From: a virus
Taxonomy: Duplodnaviria > Caudoviricetes
Length of the DNA: 55,801 nucleotides
IMG/VR virus record: IMGVR_UViG_3300032170_000078
Coordinates: 1 to 55,801 of that record
Direction: 5' to 3' (one strand)
The position numbers were made by a program, and so were the translations under genes. Position 1 is the stretch's first letter, and each line of letters starts with the position of its first letter. Of the stretch, positions 1 to 55,801 are shown piece after piece. A model generated the notes under the pieces. It was not told the origin of the DNA and did not search any database. It saw only the letters and a program-made list of their open reading frames with translations.

Positions 1-58
1 ATACCCACATGACCCCAGGTAGGTTACGGAAGAGTATACTTAAGGTTAGGAGGTTTGG

Positions 59-346
59 ATGATATTCTTCAACGTCCCCGAAGCTAGAGAACAGTTGGCT
101 AACAGGGGGCTGGTTTATACCCTACGATCTTCATTCCGTTCCATTGGTAACACCAGAGCAGTAACAGGAAGCTATTCCAAGCATGATACTCTGTGTGAAG
201 TTAGTGTGCAGAGGATAGAGACCATTAAGCACCCAGACGACTTATACCCCTACCTACACCACTCAGGATTTGACGATGTGGATACTTGGCTGAGCAAGGC
301 CACCCCTTCAGCCAGGACCCTTTATAAGGTAGAGAGATTAAGGTAA
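59..346 (+). CDS. ASCH/PUA-like domain protein
   Basis: 95 aa; N-terminal 'F...L...G.VYTLR' and late 'SGFDDVDTW' match the ASCH pattern; AGGAGG RBS. Confidence 0.5.
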   Translation: MIFFNVPEAREQLANRGLVYTLRSSFRSIGNTRAVTGSYSKHDTLCEVSVQRIETIKHPDDLYPYLHHSGFDDVDTWLSKATPSARTLYKVERLR

Positions 347-360
347 GGAGGTTTGGATAA

Positions 361-819
361 ATGTATGACTGGTCTAGAGCTGAGATTACTCCCAAGCCGG
401 CTATAACAGGTTACCTCTTCCATAGCACTAAGATACCCATAGCCTTCCAGATACTTAAGGACGGGTACATCAAACCCTTTGCTGGGTCCATATCCTTTAC
501 CCTTGACCCCTGCTTTAACGTAGGAATACCCTCTCTCTCCTTTATCTTCCCAGAGAAGTTGATAAGGGACAAGTATGGGGGAGTAGACCTACCTATGCCA
601 CATTACTGGACTCAGGGAGAGGAAGCTTGGAGGAAGCAATGGGAAGAGGAGATGGAGGTGGAGGTAAAAGGAAAGTTGGTATATGTGTCTGATTGTGTAG
701 AGATACTTCCAGAAAGGGCAGCTTGTTGGAAGTACGGGAGAGGGTATGGTTACCACTTCAAAGATATAAGAGAGAGGCTTTCGGGTCCATGGAGAACCTT
801 AAGGAGGATTTTGGAATAG
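361..819 (+). CDS. Putative ADP-ribosyltransferase-fold protein
   Basis: 'YLFHST..AFQILKDGYI', 'ISFTLD' and 'EEEMEV' resemble the three catalytic strands of ART-fold proteins. Confidence 0.4.
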   Translation: MYDWSRAEITPKPAITGYLFHSTKIPIAFQILKDGYIKPFAGSISFTLDPCFNVGIPSLSFIFPEKLIRDKYGGVDLPMPHYWTQGEEAWRKQWEEEMEVEVKGKLVYVSDCVEILPERAACWKYGRGYGYHFKDIRERLSGPWRTLRRILE

Positions 820-821
820 GC

Positions 822-858
822 AAGGGCTAAGGTTTGAGGCAAAATAAGGCCCTTTTTT
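822..858 (+). terminator. Probable intrinsic terminator
   Basis: AAGGGCT...GGCCCTT stem followed by a T run right after the ORF stop. Confidence 0.45.
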
Positions 859-922
859 GTTTCGCTTTATTGACCTAAAAATGAATTCATTTATGAATTG
901 ATTTTATTTGCTAATAAAACTA

Positions 923-951
923 TTGCTTTTTCGGAAAAGGTCTTTTATAAT
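923..951 (+). promoter_or_regulatory. sigma70-type promoter
   Basis: TTGCTT-N17-TATAAT in an AT-rich gap; 14-bp palindrome AAATGAATTCATTT upstream at 879-892. Confidence 0.7.
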
Positions 952-1024
952 AAAGTGTAGGATAAAATAATAGCCTGATAAAAAACCTCAAGGCTAAATA
1001 TTATCCGAAAGGAGGAAAATCCAA

Positions 1025-1255
1025 ATGGTAGAAGCAATGGAACCCAAACATCTTGCGGCTCGAATGGGTATTAGCCCGAAAAGGCTAAGAGCCTTGCTAA
1101 GAGCTGAACATCCTCGGAAGGCCGAAGTCAAGGGCAAGAAATGGGAAATTAGCCCGACTCTTGCCAAGGAGGTGGAAAAGGCCTATAAGGCTAAGAAGGC
1201 CAAAAAGGAAGAGGCCAAAAAGGCCGAAATCGCGAAGGAACTGGAGGGGGAATAA
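1025..1255 (+). CDS. Small HTH DNA-binding protein with Lys/Glu/Ala tail
   Basis: 'PKHLAARMGISPKRLRALLR...KKWEI'; paralogous to 11786-12061 and the C-terminus of 9918-10502. Confidence 0.65.
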   Translation: MVEAMEPKHLAARMGISPKRLRALLRAEHPRKAEVKGKKWEISPTLAKEVEKAYKAKKAKKEEAKKAEIAKELEGE

Positions 1256-1289
1256 AATCCCCCTTCGGTTGTAGCTAGAGAGGTGGAAT

Positions 1290-1433
1290 ATGGAAAAGGC
1301 AGTATGTAACAAGTGCGGAGCGACCTATGAGGACAAGGAATCTATTGACCTAGTCAAGAAGTGGATAAAGGACGGTTATGCCCCTTGCCCAAATATAAGT
1401 TGCCCCGGCGAGATGGAAATCAAAGAGGAATAG
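1290..1433 (+). CDS. Small zinc-ribbon protein (47 aa, not in ORF track)
   Basis: MEKAVCNKCG...PCPNISCPGEM; GAGGTGG RBS. Confidence 0.6.
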   Translation: MEKAVCNKCGATYEDKESIDLVKKWIKDGYAPCPNISCPGEMEIKEE

Positions 1434-1448
1434 CCACAGGAGGGGTCT

Positions 1449-1616
1449 ATGACCGACAGAGAAAGGGATATGGAACATGCCCTCCAAGGGATTATTGACT
1501 CAACAGAGGAGTTAATGGAGGCTATCGGGAAAATGGATTGGGAGAAGATAGAAACCTTGGGGACAGAGATAGCCGCACTGGCTATGATTTTGAAGGCCCT
1601 ATCCAAAGTAAATTAA
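1449..1616 (+). CDS. Hypothetical helical protein (55 aa, not in ORF track)
   Basis: MTDRERDMEHALQG...KVN*; AGGAGG RBS; fills the gap between neighbours. Confidence 0.6.
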   Translation: MTDRERDMEHALQGIIDSTEELMEAIGKMDWEKIETLGTEIAALAMILKALSKVN

Positions 1617-1633
1617 GGAAGGAGGTGATGGAG

Positions 1634-1915
1634 ATGGAGATAGGAGAGAAGAGGGTATTCCAGAAGACCATTGACATCTTCCTTGCCGAACACCACAAGT
1701 CCTTTGAAGGCGAGGAGGAGTTCAAGGAAACCTGGGATAGGGTCAGGGCTCTTACTCTAAAGGGCACGGTAAAGGATCTTGTCTCATCCTGCATTGAGGC
1801 TTCTTGGGACCTGCCCGCTTTCGCCGAGTGGATCCTGAAGACTGAGATTTGCCCTGAGGACGCAAAGGCCCTACTCGGTGAGGCAGCATACCGTATGAAT
1901 GAATGGGATACCTAA
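1634..1915 (+). CDS. Hypothetical protein
   Basis: Start moved to the ATG after AAGGAGGTG. Confidence 0.6.
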   Translation: MEIGEKRVFQKTIDIFLAEHHKSFEGEEEFKETWDRVRALTLKGTVKDLVSSCIEASWDLPAFAEWILKTEICPEDAKALLGEAAYRMNEWDT

Positions 1916-1957
1916 AGGTCGAGAGTCCTGAGTCTTAACGAAAGGAGGTGAAACCAA

Positions 1958-2146
1958 ATGGTAGAACCAAAGGCCGAGTATCCCAGTATGGAGGCCGCGG
2001 CAGAGGATGCTATCAAAGACGCTGGAGAGACCTTCACTGAGGAAGAGCTCAACAAGATAGGGCAATATTTCCTCAAGTGGAGGAAGGCAGCTGGCTATAA
2101 GAAGATTTGCCGGTGGTTGATAGCTAGGTCACAGGGGGAAGAATAA
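1958..2146 (+). CDS. Hypothetical protein
   Basis: ORF with AAAGGAGGTG RBS. Confidence 0.6.
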   Translation: MVEPKAEYPSMEAAAEDAIKDAGETFTEEELNKIGQYFLKWRKAAGYKKICRWLIARSQGEE

Positions 2147-2162
2147 CCAAAGGGAGGCAAAA

Positions 2163-2351
2163 GTGAAAGAGTTAAAGGTCGAGAAAAGGAAAAGAGGCTG
2201 GGCCTTGGTGGTTAGCGCCTCTGGTAGGACCCAGGAAAGGAGGTTCCACTACAAGGCTGATGCTGAACGGGCCAGAGGGAACTTCAGCTACTACTCTGAG
2301 TTCCAATTGGAAGGGATATTTGACCACTACTTCAGCCCCATAGCCGATTAG
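2163..2351 (+). CDS. Hypothetical protein
   Basis: GTG start with GGGAGG RBS. Confidence 0.55.
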   Translation: MKELKVEKRKRGWALVVSASGRTQERRFHYKADAERARGNFSYYSEFQLEGIFDHYFSPIAD

Positions 2352-2360
2352 GCTTCCACA

Positions 2361-2390
2361 TTGACAGGAAGTGATCAGGTATGATATAGT
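2361..2390 (+). promoter_or_regulatory. sigma70-type promoter
   Basis: TTGACA-N18-TATAGT with TG extension. Confidence 0.65.
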
Positions 2391-2440
2391 GATAGTGTAG
2401 ACAATAGAAAGGGGAAAATCAACCAGAAAGGGGGGTTACT

Positions 2441-2650
2441 ATGGCTGAACCAACAAAGAAGGCACCAGAGATAGAGAGCCTCATAGACGCTACTAACCCA
2501 TCTGGCAGAAAACGGGTAGATAGCATCAAGGCAGATATCTGCAGCTGGTGTGGGAAACCCGCTACTGAGTTTAGGGATGAGCTTTCCCGCAAGGAGTATA
2601 CCATCTCAGGTTTCTGCCAAGAGTGTCAGGACAAAACTTTCGGAGAATAA
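2441..2650 (+). CDS. Zinc-finger protein
   Basis: CSWC...FCQEC. Confidence 0.65.
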   Translation: MAEPTKKAPEIESLIDATNPSGRKRVDSIKADICSWCGKPATEFRDELSRKEYTISGFCQECQDKTFGE

Positions 2651-2654
2651 CCTT

Positions 2655-2999
2655 ATGAAAGTCCTAGTTTGTGGAGATAGGAGTTGGAAGGACTGGAATA
2701 AGATCCGGTCAAAGCTTCAGGAGCTAAAGCCCGAGGTCATTATAGCTGGAGGAGCTAGAGGGGCTGACACTACTGCCGCATTGATTGCTTCTAAGGAATT
2801 GGGTATCCCAGCCTATATATATCCAGCTCAATGGAATACTTATGGTAGGGCTGCTGGCCCCATTCGCAACAGGGAAATGCTAGACCAGTGTCCCGACCTA
2901 GTCTTAGCTTTCCACAGTGACTTAAGCAAGAGCAAAGGGACAGCTGATTGTGTTAGAGAGGCCAGGAAAAGGGGAATAAAGGTCCAAATAGTAACATAA
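2655..2999 (+). CDS. YspA/SLOG-family (DUF2493-like) protein
   Basis: MKVLVCGDR, GGARGAD, GRAAGPIRNREML, SKGTADC motifs. Confidence 0.85.
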   Translation: MKVLVCGDRSWKDWNKIRSKLQELKPEVIIAGGARGADTTAALIASKELGIPAYIYPAQWNTYGRAAGPIRNREMLDQCPDLVLAFHSDLSKSKGTADCVREARKRGIKVQIVT

Positions 3000-3014
3000 G
3001 GAGGTAAAACATAG

Positions 3015-3239
3015 ATGCCAGAGTCCCAACAGGTTGTAGAGGACGAAATCTATAACCGGCAGTACCAGTGGATCAAGGACAACAAGGGTAAAGAGGCGGC
3101 AGAAAAAGCCAATTATGGCTGGGGAGTAGACACGACTGGTGAGAAGTTAGTGGTAGAGACCAAGGTCTATGGCCATGGGGTCCTTATCAGCCGTGGATCT
3201 TCAAAGGAAGACATAAGCCACGATTTTGAGCCGTTCTGA
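3015..3239 (+). CDS. Hypothetical protein
   Basis: ORF after the AACATAAGGAGG motif. Confidence 0.6.
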   Translation: MPESQQVVEDEIYNRQYQWIKDNKGKEAAEKANYGWGVDTTGEKLVVETKVYGHGVLISRGSSKEDISHDFEPF

Positions 3240-3414
3240 AAGGGGGTGAGGTAGTGTTTCCGATAACTATTTACACAGTTCCACCAGGCTGGAAGTATTT
3301 CCATACGAGCGGAGGTGTTACTTTCATTGGTTGGGGTGGAAAGAGACTATTGATTGCCTGGTGGATGCTAAATCCACTCAGGAAGAAAGAAATATAAGGA
3401 GGGGGTGAAAAGGG

Positions 3415-3684
3415 ATGAAAAAAGTAGTGGCTATCGTGCTCCATGATGACCCTAGTGATGGGGTGGAGAAATGCTGGGTAGGTGACTCTGAGAAAGAGGT
3501 AATTAGTCGGGTATTTGGATATGTGGGTTCATGCTATGAGAAAAGTGGGGACCCTGAAGAAGCTATAATAGCCAAGGAATATTATAGCAAGTCCCCCACT
3601 CAGGGCAACTGGGAAGGACTCCAAATGAGCTGGACTGGTGAGAATGATGTCTACCTCTTCCACTTATTCGAGATAGAAGTCTAA
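3415..3684 (+). CDS. Hypothetical protein
   Basis: ORF with strong RBS. Confidence 0.55.
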   Translation: MKKVVAIVLHDDPSDGVEKCWVGDSEKEVISRVFGYVGSCYEKSGDPEEAIIAKEYYSKSPTQGNWEGLQMSWTGENDVYLFHLFEIEV

Positions 3685-3722
3685 TGGGTCCTAAGTTCTG
3701 AAAGAAAGGAGGTGAAAGGTAG

Positions 3723-4439
3723 ATGCCTGAAGATAGAGCCAAGGTTCTAGACCTAATCAGGAAACTTCTGGCGTTGTCTCAGTCTCCTAATGAGCACGAA
3801 GCAGCCAGAGCTGCAGAGAAGGCCCAGGAACTGTTGTTCAAGTATAAGCTCTCTATGGTTGAAGTCCAGGCTCAAAAGGGAGATGGCAAAGGGCCTAAAA
3901 TCGTTGAACTAGATGGCGACATTATATCCCAGAAGAACTGGGGAAAGTGGAAGCCTCAACTAGCTTGGGGTGTAGCCAGATACAATTTCTGTACCGGCTT
4001 CCAAGATACTTACCGGGGGAAATTCATCTTCATTGGGCAGGAAACTGAGGCCTATGTGGCTAAGGAGCTCTACGAGTGGTTGGTGGAACAGCTAGAGGGT
4101 GCGGCCAGAAGAGCCTGTCTTAACTACCAGGGTTACTCAAGGATCCCAACCTTTAGGAGAGCCTTCTTCACTGGAGCAGTCCTCACAGTAGCCAATAGGC
4201 TCTATAACCAATGGAGAAACCTACAAGGACAGTCGGAACAGTCCACAGCCCTTGTGGTAACTACCAAGGCTATGTTGGAGAGCTATAAGAAGGAGCATCA
4301 TCCATACCTTGTAAGGGGTAGGTCCCTTCGGATGGCTAACGGTTCCTACGATGGATATACGGCCGGAATAAGGGCTGGGAAAGAAGTGGATATTACAGTT
4401 AAGAGGAAACTGGGGAAAGGTCGAGGGTTATTGGAATAA
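3723..4439 (+). CDS. DUF2786-domain protein
   Basis: 'IRKLLALSQSPNEHEAARAAEKAQELLFKY' N-terminus; 'GYTAG..AG' C-terminus. Confidence 0.85.
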   Translation: MPEDRAKVLDLIRKLLALSQSPNEHEAARAAEKAQELLFKYKLSMVEVQAQKGDGKGPKIVELDGDIISQKNWGKWKPQLAWGVARYNFCTGFQDTYRGKFIFIGQETEAYVAKELYEWLVEQLEGAARRACLNYQGYSRIPTFRRAFFTGAVLTVANRLYNQWRNLQGQSEQSTALVVTTKAMLESYKKEHHPYLVRGRSLRMANGSYDGYTAGIRAGKEVDITVKRKLGKGRGLLE

Positions 4440-4455
4440 CCTAAGGAGGTAGGTT

Positions 4456-4719
4456 ATGCAAGAGGGACTAAAATTGGCTCTCCAGGTTACCTCTAAATCG
4501 GCTAGGGGAGTTCCTTGGTCAATACCTAGGGAATGGGCAGAGGAACTAATCAGGGAACAAAACCTGAACCTTCAGTGCCGAAATGGAGACATCTCTGGAG
4601 AAGCCTCGGCTCTGTTCCAATTCAATGGACAGACCTTAAGGTTAAGACGCCATTGGACCGGTAGGTACGAGCTTTATCATGGCGACTGGAAATCTGATCC
4701 CCATTGGACAGGTGACTGA
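4456..4719 (+). CDS. Hypothetical protein
   Basis: ORF with TAAGGAGGT RBS. Confidence 0.55.
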   Translation: MQEGLKLALQVTSKSARGVPWSIPREWAEELIREQNLNLQCRNGDISGEASALFQFNGQTLRLRRHWTGRYELYHGDWKSDPHWTGD

Positions 4720-4751
4720 GGTCATTGGAATAACATAGGGAGGTGGGTCTA

Positions 4752-4961
4752 ATGGAACGGGACGACATTAAAGTCAAGCGCTGGTCTTTCTGCCCCGGAT
4801 GTAAAGGTGGAAAAATGGTCCTATCGAGGAAATGTGAAATCTGCAACGGTACAGGAAAAGTCTTTGAGCTTATACCGCTCAAGTCTCTTTCTGGTGAGTC
4901 CAGGAAGAAATACGAAACCGCACAGGCTGACTTTATCCAGGAGCAGTTAAAGGGCCATTAA
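4752..4961 (+). CDS. DnaJ-type zinc-finger small protein
   Basis: CPGCKGG...CEICNGTG. Confidence 0.6.
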   Translation: MERDDIKVKRWSFCPGCKGGKMVLSRKCEICNGTGKVFELIPLKSLSGESRKKYETAQADFIQEQLKGH

Positions 4962-4986
4962 AGCTACTCTAGGACATGCAACCTCT

Positions 4987-5015
4987 TTGACAAATGGGAT
5001 CCATAGTGATATAAT
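4987..5015 (+). promoter_or_regulatory. sigma70 promoter (perfect consensus)
   Basis: TTGACA-N17-TATAAT with TG extension. Confidence 0.85.
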
Positions 5016-5053
5016 GACATTATACAATAGTAACATAAGGAGGAAAAACCCAC

Positions 5054-5215
5054 ATGGCAGACAAAATCCAGATAAAAACTAAAGCAGAGGACAAGCTCCT
5101 TCTGGAGCGAGATGTCCAAGAGCTAATGAAAGACTGGTGGGATGCCTTTGAGGAGCTGGATGACCATGGACCTGAAGATTGTAATATCACCGTGGTAAGT
5201 CAACCAAAGGAGTAG
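5054..5215 (+). CDS. Hypothetical acidic protein (53 aa, not in ORF track)
   Basis: MADKIQIKTK...QPKE*; first ORF after the promoter; AAGGAGG RBS. Confidence 0.6.
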   Translation: MADKIQIKTKAEDKLLLERDVQELMKDWWDAFEELDDHGPEDCNITVVSQPKE

Positions 5216-5217
5216 AT

Positions 5218-5430
5218 GTGTCCAAGAAAAGAGCTCCGCCTCGTGAGGAATATGTTAAAAGATATCATAGAGATTGTGGCGGGGAGATAATAAACAGGAA
5301 GTGCCTTAAATGTGACAAGACTTGGGGTCGGGTTAGATATTACCTGTCAGGTGACATAGAGGAAGTGCCACATTTAAGGCACCGCTGTAAGACTGGGGAT
5401 GAAAGCGCTGAGGAGAGTAGAGAAACATGA
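5218..5430 (+). CDS. Zinc-ribbon protein
   Basis: HRDCGG...CLKC. Confidence 0.5.
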   Translation: MSKKRAPPREEYVKRYHRDCGGEIINRKCLKCDKTWGRVRYYLSGDIEEVPHLRHRCKTGDESAEESRET

Positions 5431-5532
5431 AGGAATGGTATCAGAGAAAAGTCCTGATGTTCTTTTGGGGATGGGGGATGTTCGCCCTTGGATTTATTCT
5501 CGGTAAGTTCGTGTTCTAAAAGGAGGTCAAGG

Positions 5533-5793
5533 ATGGCTGAGACACAGCACTATATCTTTCACGAGGACGACCACAAGCAGCAGCTTGAAGGCCGTTACTG
5601 GAATGCCAATTGGAAAGGGATCTGCATCATGGCTTCCATCACAAAAGGGGTTGATTGGGCAGCCTATGTGGGGGCTGACAATGGAGAGAATGAAAGGGAG
5701 TGTATGGCTTGGACCCTACAGCATGGTGTTAAGCTCTATGAAAAGGACGCCCGTTACTTCTTCCCTGAGATCAAGTTACCTTATAGGGGGTGA
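5533..5793 (+). CDS. Hypothetical protein
   Basis: ATG after AAGGAGGT. Confidence 0.6.
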   Translation: MAETQHYIFHEDDHKQQLEGRYWNANWKGICIMASITKGVDWAAYVGADNGENERECMAWTLQHGVKLYEKDARYFFPEIKLPYRG

Positions 5794-5997
5794 ATGATGA
5801 AGGTTTGTGAGTATGATAATGTTAGTTGTCCCTTCTGTGCAGAGAGTGAGGCAGAGCATGAGGATAAAGTAGGTAATTCTCGTGGTTTGAAAGAGCTGGC
5901 GAGAGTCGTTGTCTACTCATCTAAAGCAAGCTGGCCAGCCCATCACATATCCTGCCTCTCCTGCGCTGGGGAGTTTCTGATCCCTTGTGAGGATTAA
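5794..5997 (+). CDS. Zinc-ribbon protein
   Basis: CPFC...CLSC. Confidence 0.55.
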   Translation: MMKVCEYDNVSCPFCAESEAEHEDKVGNSRGLKELARVVVYSSKASWPAHHISCLSCAGEFLIPCED

Positions 5998-6022
5998 CTG
6001 GAAACATAAGGAGGATCACCCA

Positions 6023-6355
6023 ATGGGGTATTACATTGAAGTTCCTGGGAAAAAGCAGAAGGCCGAACAGCTCGTGGAGCTATATGGAGCCGAAATACTG
6101 TCTGATGAACCCCGGGCCCTTGAGGACGTTCCTACTGGGAAGGCACTTATCTGCGTATTGGATAATGGCTCTTTTGAGGCAGCTGGCTTCTGCTATAGCC
6201 AAAGGGAATTTGAGGCTTTCAGCTTACCCGATACCATTAGAGATCCCAATCCACCACCAGGGGTTCACGACTTCAATCCCACTCATCAGAGACCAAGGAA
6301 GTGGTTACTTATGGACTGGGACTTGACCTGTAGGCTAACTAACTATTTGGAATAA
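6023..6355 (+). CDS. Hypothetical protein
   Basis: ATG after AACATAAGGAGG. Confidence 0.6.
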   Translation: MGYYIEVPGKKQKAEQLVELYGAEILSDEPRALEDVPTGKALICVLDNGSFEAAGFCYSQREFEAFSLPDTIRDPNPPPGVHDFNPTHQRPRKWLLMDWDLTCRLTNYLE

Positions 6356-6371
6356 CGTAAGGAGGGACAAC

Positions 6372-6554
6372 ATGAAGTACAGGTATATCCAACACATTGA
6401 CACTCACATTGAAGTGGAGGTTGAGGCTGAGAATAAGGATGAGGCAGAAGAAAAGGCAATAACAGAAACGGTGGATATGAGTAATGAGGAATATAGTCGT
6501 CAGCTTGTTGCTAATGCTGAGGCTGGTGAGTCGATCATTGAAGAGATAACCTGA
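6372..6554 (+). CDS. DpnD/PcfM-like small acidic protein
   Basis: 'IEVEVEAENKDEAEEKA' pattern. Confidence 0.45.
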   Translation: MKYRYIQHIDTHIEVEVEAENKDEAEEKAITETVDMSNEEYSRQLVANAEAGESIIEEIT

Positions 6555-6572
6555 GGAGGTAGGTATCCACAT

Positions 6573-6601
6573 TTGACAAACTCGAACCAATATCTTATAA
6601 T
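6573..6601 (+). promoter_or_regulatory. sigma70 promoter (perfect consensus)
   Basis: TTGACA-N17-TATAAT. Confidence 0.85.
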
Positions 6602-6646
6602 GAGAGTAGACTAAACAAACGCTAGCATAAGGGGTTAATAAGTTGG

Positions 6647-7435
6647 ATGATTAGGACATCAAGGTATACCACCATAATGTCCAAGAAGTTTGAAGAAGTC
6701 AGGTCTGGGGCTTTTGGGATTGAAAAGGTAGTGATACCAAAGGGGACCACTTTAAGAACTTACTCTCCAATGGGGTTCCTATACTTGGACACCTTCAGTG
6801 CCGACTTCCCAATAGTTAGATTAAGAGAGGGGGAGCCAAACCCCCAAGTACCAGATTCAGGGCTTTGGATGTCCGATACTCCACTGGAACAGGAATCACT
6901 AAGGAACCCCATATATATGGCTTATGGGGACGTCCTTGAGATCGGGCTTGGTATAGGTTTATTTCCTACATTACTGAGAAGGAGAAATAAATCTGTAAAG
7001 AATATTACCATAGTGGAAAGGGAGGCAGATCTAGTCCCCCTTGTATATCATCGTATTGAATACAAGAGGACCAAACTTATCTTATCTGATGGGGAGGAGT
7101 GGCTTAAGTTCTGCCAAACTACCGGGGAGAAATATGACTTTATTCATATTGACGTCTGGGCCGATCTTACTGCCCCAATAAGGGAAATTGAGAAGTGGAC
7201 TAAATTAGCTGAACCATGTCTCAAAAAGAATGGCATTATCTGGTGCTGGCTCCAAGAGCTATATGATCGGATTAGAGACCGATTGCCTAAGGAACCAGTA
7301 CGTTCTGCTGGAGTTCCAGGTTTCTATGAACCGTGTCTTATTTGTGGTAAGGTGCTCCGAAATGATTATGCTGGGCTTTGTACGGACTGTGCTGATAATA
7401 TGAAGGTAAGTGAAATGTTTATAGAAAGGAGGTGA
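6647..7435 (+). CDS. Class I SAM-dependent methyltransferase (spermidine-synthase-like) with C-terminal Zn finger
   Basis: 'WMSDTPLE', 'VLEIGLGIG', 'ITIVE', 'YDFIHIDVW'; CLIC..CTDC. Confidence 0.75.
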   Translation: MIRTSRYTTIMSKKFEEVRSGAFGIEKVVIPKGTTLRTYSPMGFLYLDTFSADFPIVRLREGEPNPQVPDSGLWMSDTPLEQESLRNPIYMAYGDVLEIGLGIGLFPTLLRRRNKSVKNITIVEREADLVPLVYHRIEYKRTKLILSDGEEWLKFCQTTGEKYDFIHIDVWADLTAPIREIEKWTKLAEPCLKKNGIIWCWLQELYDRIRDRLPKEPVRSAGVPGFYEPCLICGKVLRNDYAGLCTDCADNMKVSEMFIERR

Positions 7436-10673: not shown

Positions 10674-10674
10674 G

Positions 10675-47076: not shown

Positions 47077-48643
47077 ACTTAAGATTTGCTGGCCCAAGGG
47101 GGAAGTTCTCTTCAAGGGCAAAGGGATTATCCAGGCGTGGGGAGAGGAGATGGAACGCAAGGGGTGGATTATAGAATGGGACCCGAGGAAGTGGGAAGAG
47201 TGTGACCTGGTCTTTTATGGTTCGGACAGCCAGTTGAAGTACTGCCCTGGGGCCTTGGGAAATAAGCCTACAATTCTCTATTTCTGGGGCTGGATGCCAT
47301 CAAGGTTACTGGATAGAAACTTCCAGCAGATAGCTACAGAACAGTTAAAGTTGATAACGCAATGCACTAGGATATTAGTCCCAAGTTTAGGGACTATGGA
47401 CCAGGTGGCTGATTTTGGACTCCCCAGTGAGGTATGTCTCCCAGGAGTGGATTCTAGGCTGTTAGACCAGGGAGGACCAGTTACTGTGGAGCCCTCCAGG
47501 ATTCTCTTCCTTTCGAGGATAGTTCCCCATAAGCAGCCAGAGGCCTTGATTCATGCCCTATCTCTTATTGAACCCTCTCCTAAACTCCTTATGATAGGTC
47601 CAGGTGAAACAGGTCCACTTAAGGAGCTAGCAGAGGGGCTTGGAGTCTCTATTGAATTCTCCGAGGTTGAGGACTCCATGAAAGGTACTGAGCTACGAAA
47701 AGGTACAGTTCTAGTTCACCCAAGTTCCTACGAAGGATTTGGACTTCCACCTCTTGAGGCTCTATACTGCGGAACCCCCGTCATAGCCTTTGATATCCCA
47801 CAGATGAGGTGGCTACTTCAAGAGGATGCCTGCTACTTTTCTACCGTGGAAGGTCTTGCCCAAACCATAGTCCAAGTATTTCAGAATTATGACGAGGCTA
47901 GAGAGACAGCAGCTCATGGAGCTAAGCGGATACGAGATACTCTGACTTTAGAACATGCCTGCGATAGGCTCTGGCTTCATATTCACCAGGCCCATAAAGA
48001 GTTCTGGGGCGGAGTAGTAAGGAAGGACCCCTCTAGGTGGGAAGAGGCCTATGACCAAGAGCACAAGCGGAATTGGGCTTATAGTGTGGATAGGTTCGAT
48101 CCTACCTGGGCAAGACACTGGAGGGCGCAGACCTTTATAGACTTGTTAAGGGAGTGTAAAGCTGAGCATATCCTGGATGTGGGATGTGGAGCTGTTTATC
48201 CAACGATATTTGCCAGAGCAGGGTTCAATGTTACTGCTGTGGACATCTCATCGGAATGTTTGGACCAAGTAATAAGTATAGCCAGGAAGTGGGAGGTGAT
48301 TAACAAGGTATTCACTCTTCAGCAGGATGCAACTGATTTAGAGAGCTGCGCTACTGGGGGATTTGACGCTGTAGTTCAGGCAGAACTTTGGGAACATGTT
48401 CTGGATGTGGAAAAGGTCATATCTGAAGGCCTTAGAGTATTGAAGCCGGGTGGGTACCTGATAACTTCCACTCCAATCGGAACTCACCACTATGACCCCT
48501 TCCATATAAGAATCTTCGACGATGAGAGTATTCAGGTTCTGGTGAATAGGTTTAGTGATAAAGCCAACTGCAAAAGACTTGAGAAGATTGCCGAGCAGGG
48601 AGCAGACCCAAGTTGTTACCTTGTAGTATTGGAGAAGAAATGA
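47069..48643 (+). CDS. GT4 glycosyltransferase-methyltransferase fusion
   Basis: EGFGLPPLEALYCGTPVI followed by LDVGCG...EHV...LKPGG. Confidence 0.85.
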   Translation: MNELKICWPKGEVLFKGKGIIQAWGEEMERKGWIIEWDPRKWEECDLVFYGSDSQLKYCPGALGNKPTILYFWGWMPSRLLDRNFQQIATEQLKLITQCTRILVPSLGTMDQVADFGLPSEVCLPGVDSRLLDQGGPVTVEPSRILFLSRIVPHKQPEALIHALSLIEPSPKLLMIGPGETGPLKELAEGLGVSIEFSEVEDSMKGTELRKGTVLVHPSSYEGFGLPPLEALYCGTPVIAFDIPQMRWLLQEDACYFSTVEGLAQTIVQVFQNYDEARETAAHGAKRIRDTLTLEHACDRLWLHIHQAHKEFWGGVVRKDPSRWEEAYDQEHKRNWAYSVDRFDPTWARHWRAQTFIDLLRECKAEHILDVGCGAVYPTIFARAGFNVTAVDISSECLDQVISIARKWEVINKVFTLQQDATDLESCATGGFDAVVQAELWEHVLDVEKVISEGLRVLKPGGYLITSTPIGTHHYDPFHIRIFDDESIQVLVNRFSDKANCKRLEKIAEQGADPSCYLVVLEKK

Positions 48644-49461
48644 ACATTCTATTGGCTACCCCGCTTTATTCCCAACATTACGACGCTGGTCATTTCTGGC
48701 TTAGAGCCCTAAACCAGCTAGGTCATTCGGTTCAGGTATGGGACTACAGGCTGGACAAAGACCCTCCACCCTTTGCCCACTACCCTGAGGTTACCATAGT
48801 TCTGAAGGGGGAAAATGTGGACCCTAGAAAGTTGCCTCGGCCGGCCATAAATTATTGGCCAGATGCCTTGGAGAGAACTCCAGGTATAGAGGAAACCCTG
48901 AAGCTTTATGACAAAGCCTTCGGCCTGGTAAAACCTCTTTCCGATTGGATGGAGTGGATTCCTACTGGATGGGACCCAGCTATACACAAGGATCTTGGCC
49001 TATTAAAGGCCATGAGAACTATCTATGTGGGCACAGCTAACTCCAAATATAAAACAGATATGATCCATAGAATAAAACCAGACCTAGTTTATGGCAATGG
49101 GTGGAGATCGAGTCCCGAGTTTGGGCCGAGATACCTTCACGACTTGACCTATGTCCTTAATCATGCCGAGGTCCTTATAGATGTCCATCAGTCTCCAGAT
49201 ACTGGACCTAACCGGAAGCTCTTTGAGATGATAGCCTGTGGGTTTACGATTGTAGATAGGGTCCCAGGTGTGGAGGAAATACTTGGATGGGGCTTAACCA
49301 ATCAGGTGGGTTTCAAGACTCCGGAAGAAGCCAGGGAACTAATCAAGTATTATCTTGAGAGACCAAAAGAAAGGGAGAAGATATGGCAGTTGGAACGAGA
49401 GAAGATACAAGAGTACACATACGAGAAAGTAGTGAAGAGGATATTAGGCCACCTAAAGTAG
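48640..49461 (+). CDS. CgeB-like (Glyco_trans_1_2) glycosyltransferase
   Basis: YVGT, 'YGNGW', 'PNRKLFEMIACG'. Confidence 0.8.
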   Translation: MNILLATPLYSQHYDAGHFWLRALNQLGHSVQVWDYRLDKDPPPFAHYPEVTIVLKGENVDPRKLPRPAINYWPDALERTPGIEETLKLYDKAFGLVKPLSDWMEWIPTGWDPAIHKDLGLLKAMRTIYVGTANSKYKTDMIHRIKPDLVYGNGWRSSPEFGPRYLHDLTYVLNHAEVLIDVHQSPDTGPNRKLFEMIACGFTIVDRVPGVEEILGWGLTNQVGFKTPEEARELIKYYLERPKEREKIWQLEREKIQEYTYEKVVKRILGHLK

Positions 49462-50324
49462 TTGGGATATCAGTTCCATATCCCGGGGCGAAAAGACCCT
49501 TAGAGGAAGGAGCCAAGCTCCACATGTGGGAATTTGTGCTATTAACTGGAGGGAGAATATCTATCCCAGATGCCGATATTTATATCCTTGCGGCCTGGCA
49601 TTCCGCCTACGAGCAACTCTTGGGGTTGGGTGGAAAGACAGGGGTTCTGTGGACCTCTTCAGCTGGAGAGATGGACTTTGAGCCCGTGGAACAGGAATAC
49701 CTTAGGAGGATAAGAGAAGATCCAAGGATTTCCTTTATCTGGTTTGGAGATATAGCTCTGGCAAGGGTATACCCTGAGAAGGGGTTTTATGCCCCTTATC
49801 CTTTAGATGTGGACAGAGTAAATCCCCCAAATGTGGAAAAGAAAAACATAGTTACGTTGTTTTGTCCCACTGGACCGAAGAAGAATATCCTTAATCAGCT
49901 ATTGGCGGTAAAGCTTGTGCAGAGCAGCACAAAGCTTACCCTTCATACCAATGTAAGGGGCTATGAAAGTCTTCTTAATGATGTCAGAGGCGTGGACTGT
50001 GTACGTCATGAGTGGCTTCCGGATGTGGAATACCGCTCATTACTGGCTTCAGCGAAGGTTAATCTTGCTTGTAGCTGGGCAGAGACTTTTAACTATAACG
50101 TAGCCGAGGCAGCGTTGCTGGGAACTATCTCAGTGGTCTCTAGAACTATCCCAATAGGTGGATTGTCGGTAAAGAACCCAAATAATCCAGTCCACATAGC
50201 CGAGAAGATCCTAGAGGGATGTGGGGCCCAGTATGTGGATACTTTGAGGATAGTTAAGGAAGAGCTCAGGATCAGGAACCAAGAGTGTAAGAGAATCCTG
50301 GGAGAGAGACTATCGGCCCTCTAG
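49383..50324 (+). CDS. GT-B-like glycosyltransferase
   Basis: 'KKNILNQ', 'SWAETFNYNVAEAALLG'; start uncertain. Confidence 0.65.
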   Translation: MAVGTREDTRVHIRESSEEDIRPPKVVGISVPYPGAKRPLEEGAKLHMWEFVLLTGGRISIPDADIYILAAWHSAYEQLLGLGGKTGVLWTSSAGEMDFEPVEQEYLRRIREDPRISFIWFGDIALARVYPEKGFYAPYPLDVDRVNPPNVEKKNIVTLFCPTGPKKNILNQLLAVKLVQSSTKLTLHTNVRGYESLLNDVRGVDCVRHEWLPDVEYRSLLASAKVNLACSWAETFNYNVAEAALLGTISVVSRTIPIGGLSVKNPNNPVHIAEKILEGCGAQYVDTLRIVKEELRIRNQECKRILGERLSAL

Positions 50325-53712: not shown

Positions 53713-53724
53713 ACAGGATATACC

Positions 53725-53753
53725 TTGACAAAGAGATCTTTTTAAGGTATAAT
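53725..53753 (+). promoter_or_regulatory. sigma70 promoter (perfect consensus)
   Basis: TTGACA-N17-TATAAT. Confidence 0.85.
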
Positions 53754-53772
53754 AGTAACAGGAGGTGGATTT

Positions 53773-54363
53773 ATGGTTATGGAAAGATTTAAGCCTCCAC
53801 CTGAACCCCCTGAAAGGGCTCCGTGGGAAGAAGTAAAGTTCCTAGCCCAGAAGATTGACAGACTGGTTACTTTGCTGGAAGCCCAGATGGTTCCAACGGT
53901 CCCAGGAGTCCCAGCAATTACTCCGATGATACTTTTTCCTGGAGCCCCACCGGCCCAACAGCTAGTTCTCCTACTTCAGGAAATAATTCCGGGGGCTATA
54001 GGTGCTTCAGCGATTATTCCCTTTCAGAAGACAATAGCCGTAGCCTATCAGGATGAACAAGAAAGACTAATTCCCTTTGATGGAATCATAGAGAACGTGA
54101 TAATGGGCTTTCCAGCCGGGTGCCATCAGTTTTTGGAGGTGGACCTTCTGTACCTTCCAAAAGGTGGAGGCAGGAAATATATAATCCCAACGATAGCGGA
54201 CACTTACATAGCCCTTGATGATTTTACAGTTTTGTTCCGACCTAACTATCCTATAAAAGCCCCAGGTAACTTAAGGGTAGAATGGTGGAACTACGACTCC
54301 CTGAACGTTCATACTGTTCCAGTGATAGCCACTATATCTCCAACAAGACTAGGAGTAACATAA
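53773..54363 (+). CDS. Putative vertex/penton-like beta protein
   Basis: Pro-rich N-terminus then beta-sandwich pattern ('GFPAGC', 'LDD', 'NYDSLNVH'); function inferred from context only. Confidence 0.35.
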   Translation: MVMERFKPPPEPPERAPWEEVKFLAQKIDRLVTLLEAQMVPTVPGVPAITPMILFPGAPPAQQLVLLLQEIIPGAIGASAIIPFQKTIAVAYQDEQERLIPFDGIIENVIMGFPAGCHQFLEVDLLYLPKGGGRKYIIPTIADTYIALDDFTVLFRPNYPIKAPGNLRVEWWNYDSLNVHTVPVIATISPTRLGVT

Positions 54364-54848
54364 TGGGAAAGGCATTGATAGCCAGAGGAATTGGAGCCCC
54401 AGACTTTGTCAAGGAGTTAAGGACAGTAATCTATCCCATAACTTCGGACAAGGACACTCACTTCACTGGGGAAATTGCCAAGAACGCTGTTGAAAGGGAA
54501 AACCTGGAGGGGCTTAGAGGTAACCGAATTAGGATATCTAAGGTCTCAATCCAGGCAGACCAGCAGTTATTCTTTGAGGTTCTACTTTATGGTAGTGATG
54601 ACTTTGAGGAATCAGATCTTGATAATGACTACTTCATAGGAGCAGTAGAGCTAAATCTCCCCATCTATGGATTTCAACAGACAACTGGTCAATGGAGACT
54701 AGACATTGAGAACCTGAACATTGACTATGTGGATCTTGATGGGACCAAAGAAATCCACATGGTGTTAAGGAATCTATCTCCCACAAGCAAGAATGCTGGG
54801 GCAACGGGAGAAGTTAAACTGGAATTCCTTTGTGAGTCTAGAGCCTAA
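54363..54848 (+). CDS. Intact adaptor beta-sandwich protein
   Basis: Contains both halves that are split in 52393-52713 and the 3' ends of 50482-52380 and 52795-53712. Confidence 0.7.
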   Translation: MGKALIARGIGAPDFVKELRTVIYPITSDKDTHFTGEIAKNAVERENLEGLRGNRIRISKVSIQADQQLFFEVLLYGSDDFEESDLDNDYFIGAVELNLPIYGFQQTTGQWRLDIENLNIDYVDLDGTKEIHMVLRNLSPTSKNAGATGEVKLEFLCESRA

Positions 54849-54859
54849 AGGAGAAAAAT

Positions 54860-55588
54860 ATGAGCTTAGACGATCTGGATAAGGTTGCCAGAGAGAGGAT
54901 AATAGGTTCTCCCCCTCATGACCTACAGCACCTCGGAACTCTGGAGAAGTTAAACTACGTAGGGACCATAGGCAAAGTAAGTAAGCTGGGGACCATAGCT
55001 TATCTTGGAACCGTCCTACTAACTATCCATGTGGGAACTGTCCATAAGATAGACCGGCTAGGTACCCTTGACGAGATGACCCGGGCGGGTACGTTGAACC
55101 GAATAGCTGGTGGGAGAGTAGGAACACTTGGAAGACTAGGAACAGTCCACTATGTAGAACGCGTCGGTACCATCCAGAGACTTGGCACGGCCAAATACCT
55201 CGGGACCGTAGGGAAGGTCAATTATATTCCCAGACTCGGGACTGTCTCAGCAAGGCTATTTTCAGGCATCGGTGCCGGCTTCGGACCAGGAACCCATGTG
55301 GCACGGGGTAGCTGGTATCTTGGTAGCTGGATAGATGTCAGTAGATTCCGAACCAAGACACTAGTAATCCACCCATCCTCATTATCTGGAACTATTCATA
55401 TCATGACTTCAGTACTGGGTAATGCCACAGAGTATGGCACATACTACTCCGCAAGGGTAGGCAAGGGAAGCTACACCATCAAGAGCTTTACCGAAGTCCC
55501 CAAAGAAGTAAGAGCCATATTTGAGGCAAGTGGCTCCTCTGTCACTGGGAAGGGAACACTGCGCTCACAGTGGGGACTACAAGTCTAA
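54860..55588 (+). CDS. (L/V)GT-repeat beta-solenoid/fibre protein
   Basis: 13 (L/V/A)GT units spaced mostly 6 or 9 aa apart, then a globular beta domain. Confidence 0.6.
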   Translation: MSLDDLDKVARERIIGSPPHDLQHLGTLEKLNYVGTIGKVSKLGTIAYLGTVLLTIHVGTVHKIDRLGTLDEMTRAGTLNRIAGGRVGTLGRLGTVHYVERVGTIQRLGTAKYLGTVGKVNYIPRLGTVSARLFSGIGAGFGPGTHVARGSWYLGSWIDVSRFRTKTLVIHPSSLSGTIHIMTSVLGNATEYGTYYSARVGKGSYTIKSFTEVPKEVRAIFEASGSSVTGKGTLRSQWGLQV

Positions 55589-55596
55589 GGGGGTAG

Positions 55597-55713
55597 ATGC
55601 CTTTTTTTGACAAGAAGAGCTTTATAGACTTTGAGGTGCCAGCTGAGAAGATAACCGGACAGCTGACCCTGGCCCAGCTGGTTGCCGTAGTCTGTAGCGA
55701 GTCTGAGGACTAA
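55597..55713 (+). CDS. Short ORF or gene remnant (38 aa)
   Basis: MPFFDKKSFIDF...SESED*; AAGGGGGT RBS. Confidence 0.35.
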   Translation: MPFFDKKSFIDFEVPAEKITGQLTLAQLVAVVCSESED

Positions 55714-55714
55714 C

Positions 55715-55801
55715 ATGGCCTTTATAGATAGATTTGTCAATCTTGCTCCTAAGACTACTGATTGGAAGGGTAGCTTTAACTGGGATACTTCTGCCTATAC
55801 A
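55715..55801 (+). CDS. ORF running off the window end
   Basis: MAFIDRFVNLAPKTTDWKGSF..., open to the edge. Confidence 0.4.
   Translation, partial: MAFIDRFVNLAPKTTDWKGSFNWDTSAYT

What the first reader, a model, noticed from the sequence alone, without database searches (positions are those of the whole stretch)
1..55801. Probable new lineage of large tailless virus with bacterial expression signals and archaeal-virus-like genes
Seen: virus-like modular order (early small ORFs, recombination, structural, glycosylation, spikes) over 56 kb with no recognisable terminase, portal, HK97 capsid or tail genes, and bacterial-type promoters and RBSs. The gene set (XPF/ERCC4, XPD/DinG plus RHH, AbrB, C2H2 fingers, many glycosyltransferases, dolichol-kinase family) is more typical of archaeal viruses. 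Inference: a membrane-containing or otherwise non-Caudoviricetes virus of an uncultured bacterium.
Basis: partly seen in the sequence, partly recalled or inferred. Interest (0 to 1): 0.8.

Follow-up and report, generated by a model that had tools for sequence, protein, structure and literature searches.

The report
Large bacterial virus lacking tailed-phage genes
This is about 86% of the genome of an uncultured sediment virus that uses textbook bacterial promoters, shows no detectable tailed-phage head, packaging or portal genes here or in two complete relatives, and instead carries small jelly-roll proteins that may build its shell.

Summary
The window is a whole IMG/VR virus record, classed linear and 86% complete by CheckV.

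**Bacterial signals are real.** There are 13 near-perfect TTGACA-N16-18-TATAAT sites, all facing their genes, against 0.67±1.0 in simulations. Shine-Dalgarno motifs precede 63 of 95 genes.

**No tailed-phage hallmarks.** The window has no match to terminase, portal, HK97 capsid, FtsK or A32 models. Two complete relatives I found (G001 64.9 kb, G003 69.5 kb, both with terminal repeats) have none either: 0 of 4 records for each of 8 Pfam families, with controls positive.

**Missing part.** In G001 the stretch the window lacks holds a family A DNA polymerase and small genes, not head genes.

**Candidate shell genes.** A conserved block (S8 protease, six small proteins, a glycosyltransferase) recurs in 73 metagenome loci. 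Two of the six fold as single jelly rolls. The best structural match is the Sulfolobus polyhedral virus 1 capsid protein, but only at Z 6.7-6.8.

**Weak points.** The capsid role is inferred, no packaging ATPase was found, and the archaeal-virus flavour is weak.

The scan noted another large tailless jelly-roll phage on other DNA (e1-6225064).

The parts
1..12061 (+). Early region: 30 mostly small genes, including a SLOG/YspA-like protein (2550-2999) and a DUF2786/DUF7168 protein (3723-4439). Consensus promoters start at 2361, 4987, 6573 and 11718.
12341..21483 (+). Recombination/replication module: HTH_17 (12341-12589), PD-(D/E)XK nuclease (12567-13406), Sak4-like ATPase (13669-14598), Hef/XPF-like nuclease with HhH2 (15463-16119), AAA+ ATPase of RFC/RuvB/MCM type (16387-17364) and DinG/YoaA-like helicase (19912-21483). 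Small minus-strand genes lie at 17841-18941.
   Evidence: 57-86% identical in G001
21480..23210 (-). Minus-strand block with a 408-aa low-complexity protein (21735-22961), read from a 12/12 promoter at 23218.
   Evidence: 58% identical in G001
23334..24140 (+). Mrp/NUBPL/ParA-type P-loop NTPase.
   Evidence: Pfam PF10609 E 2.3e-37; phrog_164
25106..30866 (+). Lineage-conserved lipid-type module: polytopic membrane protein (25106-25783), type III polyketide synthase (25765-26811), UbiA prenyltransferase (27074-27976) and NAD-dependent reductase/epimerase (29931-30866). A C2H2 zinc-finger plus InlB B-repeat protein (28561-29598) lies inside it.
   Evidence: shared with G001, G002 and G003
32066..33457 (+). 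Subtilisin-family (S8) protease.
   Evidence: Pfam PF00082 E 1.5e-26; next to the operon in 15 of 73 loci
33494..33522 (+). Sigma-70 promoter (TTGACA-17-TAGAAT with TG) of the six-gene operon.
   Evidence: conserved in relatives and in G001 at 43705
33553..36458 (+). Six-gene operon of unknown families (119, 115, 192, 132, 187 and 169 aa): the candidate virion core.
   Evidence: 0 Pfam and 0 PHROG families for all six; conserved order in metagenome loci
34333..34911 (+). JR1: 192-aa single jelly-roll protein with an N-terminal helix. It was the bait for the locus scan, so it is in all 73 loci.
   Evidence: 88 homologues; AF2 pLDDT 82.8; best fold match SPV1 6oj0 at Z 6.7-6.8
35386..35949 (+). 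JR2: 187-aa single jelly-roll protein, with no sequence relation to JR1.
   Evidence: AF2 pLDDT 81.8; Ena2A Z 6.8, STIV A223 Z 6.3 and many RNA-virus coat proteins; hhalign finds no relation to JR1
36561..50324 (+). Glycosylation island: GT1-type transferases (36775, 43208, 45203, 47003, 48613, 49383), methyltransferases (44430, 46318 and the C-terminus of 47003), and UDP-sugar dehydrogenase (39330), epimerase/dehydratase (40388), Gfo/Idh/MocA oxidoreductase (41308) and DegT aminotransferase (42177).
   Evidence: the first part is syntenic in L033, L035 and L045
50333..55588 (+). Spike/fibre-like genes: a 632-aa GLUG-repeat protein, a 305-aa fn3-like protein, and 196-, 161/188- and 242-aa proteins. 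Three of them share a C-terminal 52-58-aa module.
   Evidence: strain-variable in laid contigs
55715..55801 (+). ORF cut by the 3' end of the record. The DNA goes on for at least 86 nt in a contig of run X1.

Best explanation
**What it is.** The window is about 86% of the roughly 65-kb genome of an uncultured double-stranded-DNA virus of a bacterium. Relatives suggest the genome is circular or circularly permuted. It belongs to a sediment and subsurface lineage that is not a tailed phage.

**Shown.**
- Every module is read from host-type sigma-70 promoters with Shine-Dalgarno sites.
- The virus carries its own recombination set: Sak4-like, Cas4-like nuclease, Hef-like nuclease, DinG-like helicase and an AAA+ ATPase.
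- A complete relative also carries a family A DNA polymerase.
- The window and two complete relatives have no detectable terminase, portal, HK97 capsid, FtsK or A32 gene.
- A strong promoter drives a conserved six-gene operon that includes two unrelated single jelly-roll proteins.

**Inferred.**
- The jelly-roll proteins JR1 and JR2 build an icosahedral shell, with JR1 as the main capsomer and JR2 as a second or vertex protein.
- The S8 protease upstream matures shell components.
- The adjacent glycosyltransferases and amino-sugar pathway glycosylate the particle.
- The spike proteins, which carry different heads on a common C-terminal module, bind the host.

**Open.** How the DNA gets in. With no packaging ATPase seen, co-assembly around condensed DNA, as proposed for portogloboviruses, is the nearest model.
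For: **Virus record.** One contig, classed linear, CheckV 86%.

**Bacterial host.**
- 13 sites at 11 or more of 12 promoter matches, all co-oriented with their genes, against 0.67±1.0 simulated.
- Shine-Dalgarno motifs lie between the -10 box and the start codon, and precede 63 of 95 genes against 20.4±3.9 at random.
- The same promoters occur in relatives: 42 in 262 kb of loci, 15 in G001 and 10 in G003.

**Hallmark absence.** 0 of 4 records (G000, G001, G002, G003) match PF03237, PF03354, PF04466, PF17289, PF04860, PF05065, PF01580 or PF04665. Each family rang in 1-12 of 14 control genomes. G001 and G003 have terminal repeats of 127 and 117 bp and CheckV 100%.

**G001 is a true relative.** It is collinear, with 57-86% identity in recombination genes and 62-78% in lipid genes. 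Its extra DNA is a PolA block (E 7.6e-57 to Klenow fragment) plus small ORFs.

**P-loop inventory.** Classic Walker A motifs occur only in the Sak4-like and DinG-like proteins, plus short chance-like matches, in both the window and G001.

**Operon.**
- JR1 has 88 homologues of about 194 aa.
- A full HMM scan of 1.84 billion proteins found 60 clusters, all 106-235 aa.
- The block recurs in 73 loci.
- Both models are jelly rolls. JR1: 6oj0 Z 6.7/6.8, with HCIV-1, SH1, HHIV-2 and P23-77 VP17 at Z 4.8-5.1. JR2: STIV A223 Z 6.3 and many coat proteins.
- The crude scan found no hydrophobic transmembrane stretch in JR1 or JR2.

**No close kin in named collections.** None in 50,697 phage records, 72,556 plasmids or 185,579 species genomes.
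Against: - Fold matches are under Z 8 and barely above unrelated jelly rolls (BIRC6 6.5, Ena2A 6.8), so they show a fold, not a capsid role.
- In G001 the JR genes are not recognisable. There are only weak hits, though in the right order: E 0.99, 0.011 and 0.17, and hhalign probability 11% and 10%. The supposed shell genes are therefore far less conserved between G000 and G001 than the replication genes, which is unusual for capsid proteins.
- G001 also lacks the S8 protease and the glycosylation island.
- ESM Atlas neighbours of JR1 and of the 169-aa protein carry 'Uroviricota' labels on their few labelled members.
- Pfam searches with a loose first look can miss very divergent terminases or HK97 folds. 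Most unknown ORFs were never folded.
- No packaging ATPase was found, so the mechanism is incomplete.
- The window itself is incomplete.
Confidence: 0.58

Rival explanations
1. It is a tailed phage (Caudoviricetes) whose terminase, portal and HK97 capsid are too divergent for Pfam models. The jelly-roll proteins would be accessory parts such as decoration or cement proteins, or fibres.
For: - ESM Atlas neighbour clusters are labelled Uroviricota where labelled.
- Jelly rolls are common in phage decoration and fibre proteins: KHP40 cement and phage 7-7-1 fibre appear among weak matches.
- One fn3-like spike has a weak 'minor tail protein' PHROG hit, E 0.0013.
- The JR genes are swapped or diverged in G001, as accessory modules often are.
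- G001 has unexplained 386-, 616- and 668-aa ORFs.
Against: - 0 of 4 records, including two complete genomes, match four terminase families, Phage_portal or Phage_capsid, while controls rang.
- No Walker A protein other than the Sak4-like and DinG-like ones in G001.
- No tail, tape-measure or connector PHROG hit among the 30 window proteins and 10 proteins of relatives that I scanned against PHROGs.
Confidence: 0.15
2. It is a real non-tailed bacterial virus, but JR1 and JR2 are not the shell. The capsid or other particle type (pleomorphic, filamentous, or a new fold) would be built by other unknown proteins. The JR-protease-glycosylation block would be a swappable surface or host-modification cassette.
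For: - The block is absent or unrecognisable in the otherwise close G001.
- The glycosyltransferase always travels with it.
- JR2's best match is a spore-appendage fibre subunit, Ena2A, Z 6.8.
Against: - The best G001 hits of the three profiles are three consecutive genes, in the same order, just after the g33553 and g33943 homologues. This argues for a conserved but fast-diverging operon, not a cassette.
- The operon has its own consensus promoter in both genomes.
Confidence: 0.15
3. It is an archaeal virus, as the Hef-like nuclease, the C2H2 fingers and two archaeal labels on JR1 homologues would suggest.
For: - P0086 is named 'Methanocellales archaeon' and P0115 'Methermicoccaceae archaeon'.
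- Hef nuclease model, E 2.2e-8.
- C2H2 fingers.
- The distant 189-aa JR1 subgroup (L060, L061, L063) has only one consensus promoter site, lying inside an ORF, and L060 has a TTTATATA box.
Against: - An invariant TTGACA 16-18 nt upstream of TATAAT, with the Shine-Dalgarno site downstream of it, has no archaeal reading.
- PolA, DinG/YoaA, Sak4 and RusA (in L051) are bacterial or phage types.
- Both labelled contigs are short, 3.5 and 5.4 kb, so wrong binning is easy.
Confidence: 0.03
4. It is a non-viral mobile element or plasmid carrying a surface-structure and glycosylation island.
For: - A ParA/Mrp-type NTPase.
- No recognised virion gene.
- Many sugar and lipid genes.
Against: - No match to the plasmid collection for JR1, and no copy in 185,579 species genomes by pattern scan.
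- Phage-type early region, Sak4 / Cas4-like nuclease / PolA set, spike genes with strain-level head swapping.
- No relaxase or type IV secretion hit in the Pfam scans.
- IMG/VR lists it as a virus.
Confidence: 0.07

Closest known systems
Portogloboviridae (Sulfolobus polyhedral virus 1)
   Same: - Capsid of two small single jelly-roll proteins, VP4 and VP10.
- Circular dsDNA genome.
- Encodes a glycosyltransferase and a methyltransferase.
- No recognisable replication or packaging enzymes (PMC8459092, whole text read).
- The SPV1 178-residue chain is the top structural match of JR1: Z 6.7, rmsd 4.7, 134 aligned; and Z 6.8, rmsd 4.2, 127 aligned.
   Different: - The host is a hyperthermophilic archaeon; this virus has bacterial promoters.
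- Genome is 20 kb there, about 65 kb here.
- No sequence similarity.
- Z is under 8 and close to unrelated jelly rolls.
- A nucleoprotein core and a membrane are not shown here.
Singelaviria / Helvetiavirae (Sphaerolipoviridae, Simuloviridae; Thermus phage P23-77)
   Same: - Tailless viruses with two single jelly-roll capsid proteins, infecting archaea or bacteria (abstract openings of PMC12642351 and PMC12643093 as printed in the search listing; the Thermus host is recalled).
- HCIV-1, HHIV-2, SH1 and P23-77 VP17 appear among JR1's matches at Z 4.8-5.1.
   Different: - Their genomes are 16-31 kb.
- They carry an A32/FtsK-type packaging ATPase next to the capsid genes (recalled). Here PF01580 and PF04665 match 0 of 4 records.
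- No sequence similarity.
Double jelly-roll tailless phages (Tectiviridae, Corticoviridae, Autolykiviridae)
   Same: Tailless bacterial dsDNA viruses with jelly-roll shells and vertex spikes (recalled). PR772 proteins appear at Z 4.7-5.0.
   Different: - They are about 10-15 kb, with a double jelly-roll capsid protein and a packaging ATPase (recalled).
- Every JR1 relative is a stand-alone protein of 106-235 aa.
Earlier scan finding e1-6225064 (66-kb tailless-type jelly-roll membrane phage of Bacteroidota)
   Same: A large uncultured bacterial virus with a small jelly-roll coat-type protein and no tailed-phage genes (note seen, not checked by me).
   Different: That one is reported to have a STIV B204-like packaging NTPase and many small membrane proteins. 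No such ATPase was found here. A JR1 word search found no shared sequence with any other scanned window.

Membership tests
Caudoviricetes (tailed phages) | Large terminase subunit | tested here: not met
   PF03237, PF03354, PF04466 and PF17289 match 0 of 4 records, including two complete relatives; controls rang in 2-5 of 14 genomes. Sequence-model sensitivity only.
Caudoviricetes (tailed phages) | Portal protein | tested here: not met
   PF04860 matches 0 of 4 records; control 4 of 14. Other portal families were not searched.
Caudoviricetes (tailed phages) | HK97-fold major capsid protein | tested here: inconclusive
   PF05065 matches 0 of 4 records. Only two proteins were folded, and both are jelly rolls. 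The other unknown ORFs were not folded.
Caudoviricetes (tailed phages) | Tail genes (tube, tape measure, connectors) | tested here: inconclusive
   No tail PHROG hit except one weak fn3-type match, E 0.0013. Only 30 window proteins and 10 proteins of relatives were scanned against PHROGs.
Singelaviria (sphaerolipovirus-like) | Two single jelly-roll capsid proteins encoded together | tested here: inconclusive
   Two jelly-roll models in one operon, but Z 4.8-5.1 to members of the group. Orientation in a shell cannot be tested here.
Singelaviria (sphaerolipovirus-like) | A32/FtsK-type packaging ATPase beside the capsid genes | tested here: not met
   PF01580 and PF04665 match 0 of 4 records. No Walker A protein lies near the operon.
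Portogloboviridae | VP4/VP10-type jelly-roll capsid proteins | tested here: inconclusive
   Top structural match for JR1, Z 6.7-6.8, but not clearly above unrelated folds. No sequence match.
Portogloboviridae | Archaeal (Sulfolobales) host | tested here: not met
   Sigma-70 promoters with Shine-Dalgarno leaders.
Portogloboviridae | Internal membrane and VP1 nucleoprotein core | not testable with these tools
   Needs particles.
Double jelly-roll viruses (Varidnaviria) | Double jelly-roll capsid protein | tested here: inconclusive
   Both models are single jelly rolls, and JR1 relatives are 106-235 aa. Other ORFs were not folded.

The most novel reading that the evidence does not exclude
This is a new family-or-higher lineage of roughly 65-70-kb bacterial dsDNA viruses of anoxic sediments and the subsurface.
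- Its shell is built from small single jelly-roll proteins unrelated in sequence to any known capsid.
- It has no terminase and no FtsK/A32 packaging motor, so it would use a new or portoglobovirus-like way of enclosing DNA.
- It has a lineage-specific phenolic-lipid module (type III PKS plus UbiA) and particle glycosylation.
- Distant members of the same capsid family may infect methanogen-related archaea.
Probability: 0.35. Interest if true: 0.9.

Novelty: new variant of a known kind. Interest (0 to 1): 0.75.

Why it matters
All known non-tailed dsDNA phages that I could compare are small, about 10-31 kb. All but the archaeal portogloboviruses carry a recognisable packaging ATPase.

A widespread 65-kb bacterial lineage without terminase, portal, HK97 capsid or FtsK/A32 ATPase would extend the size and gene range of jelly-roll-type bacterial viruses. 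It would also pose a concrete question: how is 65 kb of DNA packed without a known motor?

This kind of virus is also easy for marker-based pipelines to overlook or mislabel. Neither the JR1-bearing 63-kb metagenome contig nor any other JR1 or JR2 relative was in the held IMG/VR copy.

The conserved viral type III PKS/UbiA module and the amino-sugar pathway are testable leads on virus-made lipids and glycans in sediments.

Tried and rejected
**Searches that found nothing**
- Direct or inverted terminal repeats of 10-2000 nt in the window: none.
- tRNA: 0. Rfam at gathering threshold: 0.
- blastn of 30001-38000 against phages: no match.
- JR1, JR2 and profile A1 in IMG/VR: none confirmed.
- A1 and A2 in species genomes: none confirmed among 49 and 33 pattern matches.
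- tblastn of JR1 and JR2 against phages, and of JR1 against plasmids: none.
- S8 protease against phages: one weak record. Sak4-like protein: 28 mycobacteriophage records at about 30% identity.
- Profiles A1, A2 and A3 against PDB sequences: nothing meaningful.
- hhalign among A1, A2 and A3: no relation.
- Pfam and PHROG scans of ORFs flanking the operon in L024, L033, L045 and L051: a PKD domain, Zn-ribbons and RusA, but no hallmark gene.
- G001's 386-aa ORF: no PDB match and no phage match.

**Inconclusive tests**
- Complex prediction of JR1 with JR2: no answer, score 0.00 in both runs.
- Host inference from DegT and PKS homologues gave only 'Woesearchaeota' and 'Chloroflexota' names at about 46% identity, or no names at all.
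- If the record were circular, the last ORF would stop at window base 12, giving 32 aa. This does not settle completeness.

**Literature.** Three full-text searches turned up no description of this lineage. I saw only the listings and the openings of abstracts, except PMC8459092, which I read whole. Supplements were not opened.

Of the 63,099-bp contig behind L033 only 20.6 kb was held.

Full report
**What the window is.** The 55,801-base window is the whole assembly held for it, a single contig. The tools treat it as a virus record. IMG/VR classes it as linear, and CheckV puts it at 86% complete. It has no exact terminal direct or inverted repeat. Its 3' end cuts an ORF. A contig of run X1, which may be the source sample, runs 86 nt past that end. 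So the record is incomplete by roughly 9 kb.

**Checking the observation.** I called 95 genes, 88 on the + strand, with 91.5% of the sequence coding.

- *Early region.* Mostly small ORFs, including a SLOG/YspA protein and a DUF2786/DUF7168 protein.
- *Recombination set.* HTH_17 and a PD-(D/E)XK nuclease. A Sak4-like protein, phrog_124, E 2.4e-30. A nuclease matching the C-terminal nuclease-HhH part of archaeal Hef, E 2.2e-8. An AAA+ ATPase of RFC/RuvB/MCM type. A helicase scoring best against bacterial YoaA/DinG.
- *Middle block.* An Mrp/ParA-type NTPase, a type III polyketide synthase, a UbiA prenyltransferase and a protein with two classical C2H2 fingers.
- *Candidate structural block.* An S8 protease followed by six genes with no Pfam or PHROG family.
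- *Glycosylation island.* Five to six GT1-type transferases, three methyltransferase domains, and UDP-sugar dehydrogenase, epimerase, Gfo/Idh/MocA and DegT enzymes.
- *Spike-like proteins.* GLUG and fn3-like parts. Three of them share a 52-58-aa C-terminal module at 58-72% identity.
- *Not confirmed.* The dolichol-kinase assignment and the AbrB-like ORF. RHH proteins were not tested.

**Host domain.** There are 13 sites matching TTGACA-N16-18-TATAAT at 11 or 12 of 12 positions. Thirty first-order Markov simulations gave 0.67±1.0, with a maximum of 3.

- All 13 sites face the genes downstream, including the two on the minus strand.
- The intergenic sequences show the Shine-Dalgarno site lying between the -10 box and the start codon.
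- Shine-Dalgarno 4-mers precede 63 of 95 genes, against 20.4±3.9 at random positions.

An invariant -35 hexamer at fixed spacing has no archaeal reading. If the TATAAT boxes were archaeal TATA boxes, the Shine-Dalgarno sites would fall at or before the transcript start. The same promoters sit in front of the same operons in relatives. The host is therefore a bacterium. I could not name it.

**The conserved block.** The 192-aa protein JR1 (34333-34911) has 88 homologues of about 194 aa in the 5.8-billion-protein set. A full HMM scan of 1.84 billion representatives found 60 clusters, all 106-235 aa long, so no fused form exists there.

A profile scan of metagenome contigs, using JR1 as bait, returned 73 loci. 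Window proteins found in them were:

| Protein | Loci with a hit (of 73) |
|---|---|
| S8 protease | 15 |
| 119-aa protein | 18 |
| 115-aa protein | 23 |
| JR1 (the bait) | 73 |
| 132-aa protein | 16 |
| JR2 (35386-35949) | 46 |
| 169-aa protein | 32 |
| 412-aa glycosyltransferase | 16 |

The order is fixed. No window gene before 28164 or after 47076 had a hit in these loci, which are mostly short.

**Folds.** The AlphaFold2 model of JR1 (pLDDT 82.8) is an N-terminal helix plus a beta sandwich.
- Its best matches are the 178-residue SPV1 capsid chain: Z 6.7, rmsd 4.7, 134 aligned; and Z 6.8, rmsd 4.2, 127 aligned.
- General jelly rolls follow (BIRC6 6.5, APC10/DOC, carbohydrate-binding modules).
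- HCIV-1, SH1, HHIV-2 and P23-77 VP17 come at Z 4.8-5.1.

The JR2 model (pLDDT 81.8) is also a jelly roll. Its matches are Ena2A at Z 6.8, STIV turret protein A223 at Z 6.3, and many RNA-virus coat proteins.

All Z values are below 8, so these results show the fold, not kinship. JR1, JR2 and the 169-aa protein show no profile similarity to one another or to PDB sequences.

The type III PKS turned out to be lineage-specific. It has 90 homologues, falling from 86% to 42% identity and then dropping sharply. One of them sits on a 63,068-bp contig, the same length as a contig that carries JR1. An alignment of the PKS found three IMG/VR records:

| Record | Length | Ends | CheckV completeness |
|---|---|---|---|
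| G001 | 64,886 bp | 127-bp terminal repeat | 100% |
| G003 | 69,475 bp | 117-bp terminal repeat | 100% |
| G002 | 40,763 bp | linear | 59% |

G001 is collinear with the window over the early genes, the recombination genes (57-86% identity), the minus-strand genes, the NTPase, the lipid module (62-78%) and the genes just before the operon.

Where the window stops, G001 has small ORFs and an oppositely oriented block. That block holds a family A DNA polymerase, E 7.6e-57 to Klenow fragment. The window's missing part is therefore probably replication and early genes, not head genes.

Six-frame family searches of G000, G001, G002 and G003 gave 0 of 4 for each of:
- Terminase_6N, TerL_ATPase, Terminase_3 and Terminase_6C
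- Phage_portal
- Phage_capsid
- FtsK_SpoIIIE
- Pox_A32

Each family rang in 1-12 of 14 control genomes. In G001, classic Walker A motifs occur only in the Sak4-like and DinG-like proteins, plus one chance-like site.

**A complication.** G001 keeps homologues of the first two operon genes, at 64% and 47% identity. It has no S8 protease, no glycosylation island and no recognisable JR1 or JR2.

The best G001 hits of the three profiles are three consecutive genes, in the right order, directly after those two homologues. The scores are weak: E 0.99, 0.011 and 0.17, and hhalign probability 11% and 10%.

I read this as a conserved operon whose products diverge fast or were exchanged with a distant relative. 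It also weakens the claim that JR1 and JR2 form the shell, because capsid proteins are usually among the best conserved.

**Other evidence against my reading.**
- ESM Atlas neighbours of JR1 and of the 169-aa protein are labelled 'Viruses, Uroviricota' on the few members that carry labels.
- Pfam models can miss very divergent hallmark proteins.
- Only two proteins were folded.

**Distribution.** Contigs from three further sediment and subsurface runs, laid on 35802-55801, gave 2801, 1511 and 870 pieces at 90-99% identity. Joints and replaced segments are concentrated at 50.4-53.5 kb, in the spike genes. Run X1 covers the stretch evenly and may be the source sample.

**Comparison with known groups.**
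[quoted passage not shown] But they are 20-kb viruses of Sulfolobales (PMC8459092).
- Sphaerolipovirus-like viruses are 16-31 kb (abstract openings in the listing). They have a packaging ATPase (recalled), which is not found here.

My three literature searches found no description of this lineage. The scan holds one note of another large tailless jelly-roll phage on different DNA, which does have a packaging NTPase. I did not check that note.

**Verdict.**
- A real, incomplete genome of a bacterial virus from a widespread sediment lineage.
- The bacterial expression signals are firmly shown.
- The absence of tailed-phage hallmarks now rests on two complete relatives, at sequence-model sensitivity.
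- A jelly-roll shell is the best-supported reading but remains an inference.
- The packaging route is unknown.

Noticed in passing
L060:5448-7970: In a distant relative the S8 protease is 840 aa. It appears to carry an intein with a homing-endonuclease-like insert just before the catalytic-serine motif.
   Followed up: no
window 25106-30866; G001 51267-57603; G003 29827-36162; G002 25767-32051: A membrane protein, type III PKS, UbiA prenyltransferase and NAD-dependent reductase form a module kept in all four virus records. The PKS clade looks virus-specific: 86% down to 42% identity, then a sharp drop. It may make phenolic lipids.
   Followed up: partly
window 50400-53600: Laid contigs from other runs show joints, replaced segments and loose ends concentrated in the spike genes. 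Three spike-region proteins share a 52-58-aa C-terminal module while their N-terminal parts differ.
   Followed up: partly
window 39330-43211: UDP-sugar dehydrogenase, epimerase/dehydratase, Gfo/Idh/MocA oxidoreductase and DegT aminotransferase lie in a row. From memory this resembles the WbpA/WbpB/WbpE route to diamino-uronic sugars. The DegT gene is conserved across the lineage's long contigs.
   Followed up: partly
   Followed up: partly
P0086, P0115; L060, L061, L063: The only two named JR1 relatives are on short contigs binned with methanogen-related archaea. The 189-aa JR1 subgroup has just one consensus sigma-70 site, inside an ORF, and L060 has a TTTATATA box upstream of its operon. 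The capsid-like family may span bacterial and archaeal viruses.
   Followed up: partly
window 28561-29598 and 21735-22961 (-): Classical C2H2 zinc fingers occur in a bacterial virus. The 408-aa minus-strand protein, with a C2H2-like N-terminus and long low-complexity parts, is 58% identical in G001.
   Followed up: no
G001 22398 (-) and 22441 (+): Divergent consensus promoters separate the small-ORF early block from the PolA block in the complete relative. This looks like a switch region that the window lacks.
   Followed up: no
G001 and G003 ends: Terminal repeats of 127 and 117 bp could be assembler overlaps of circular genomes rather than real ends. The genome topology of the lineage is open.
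   Followed up: no
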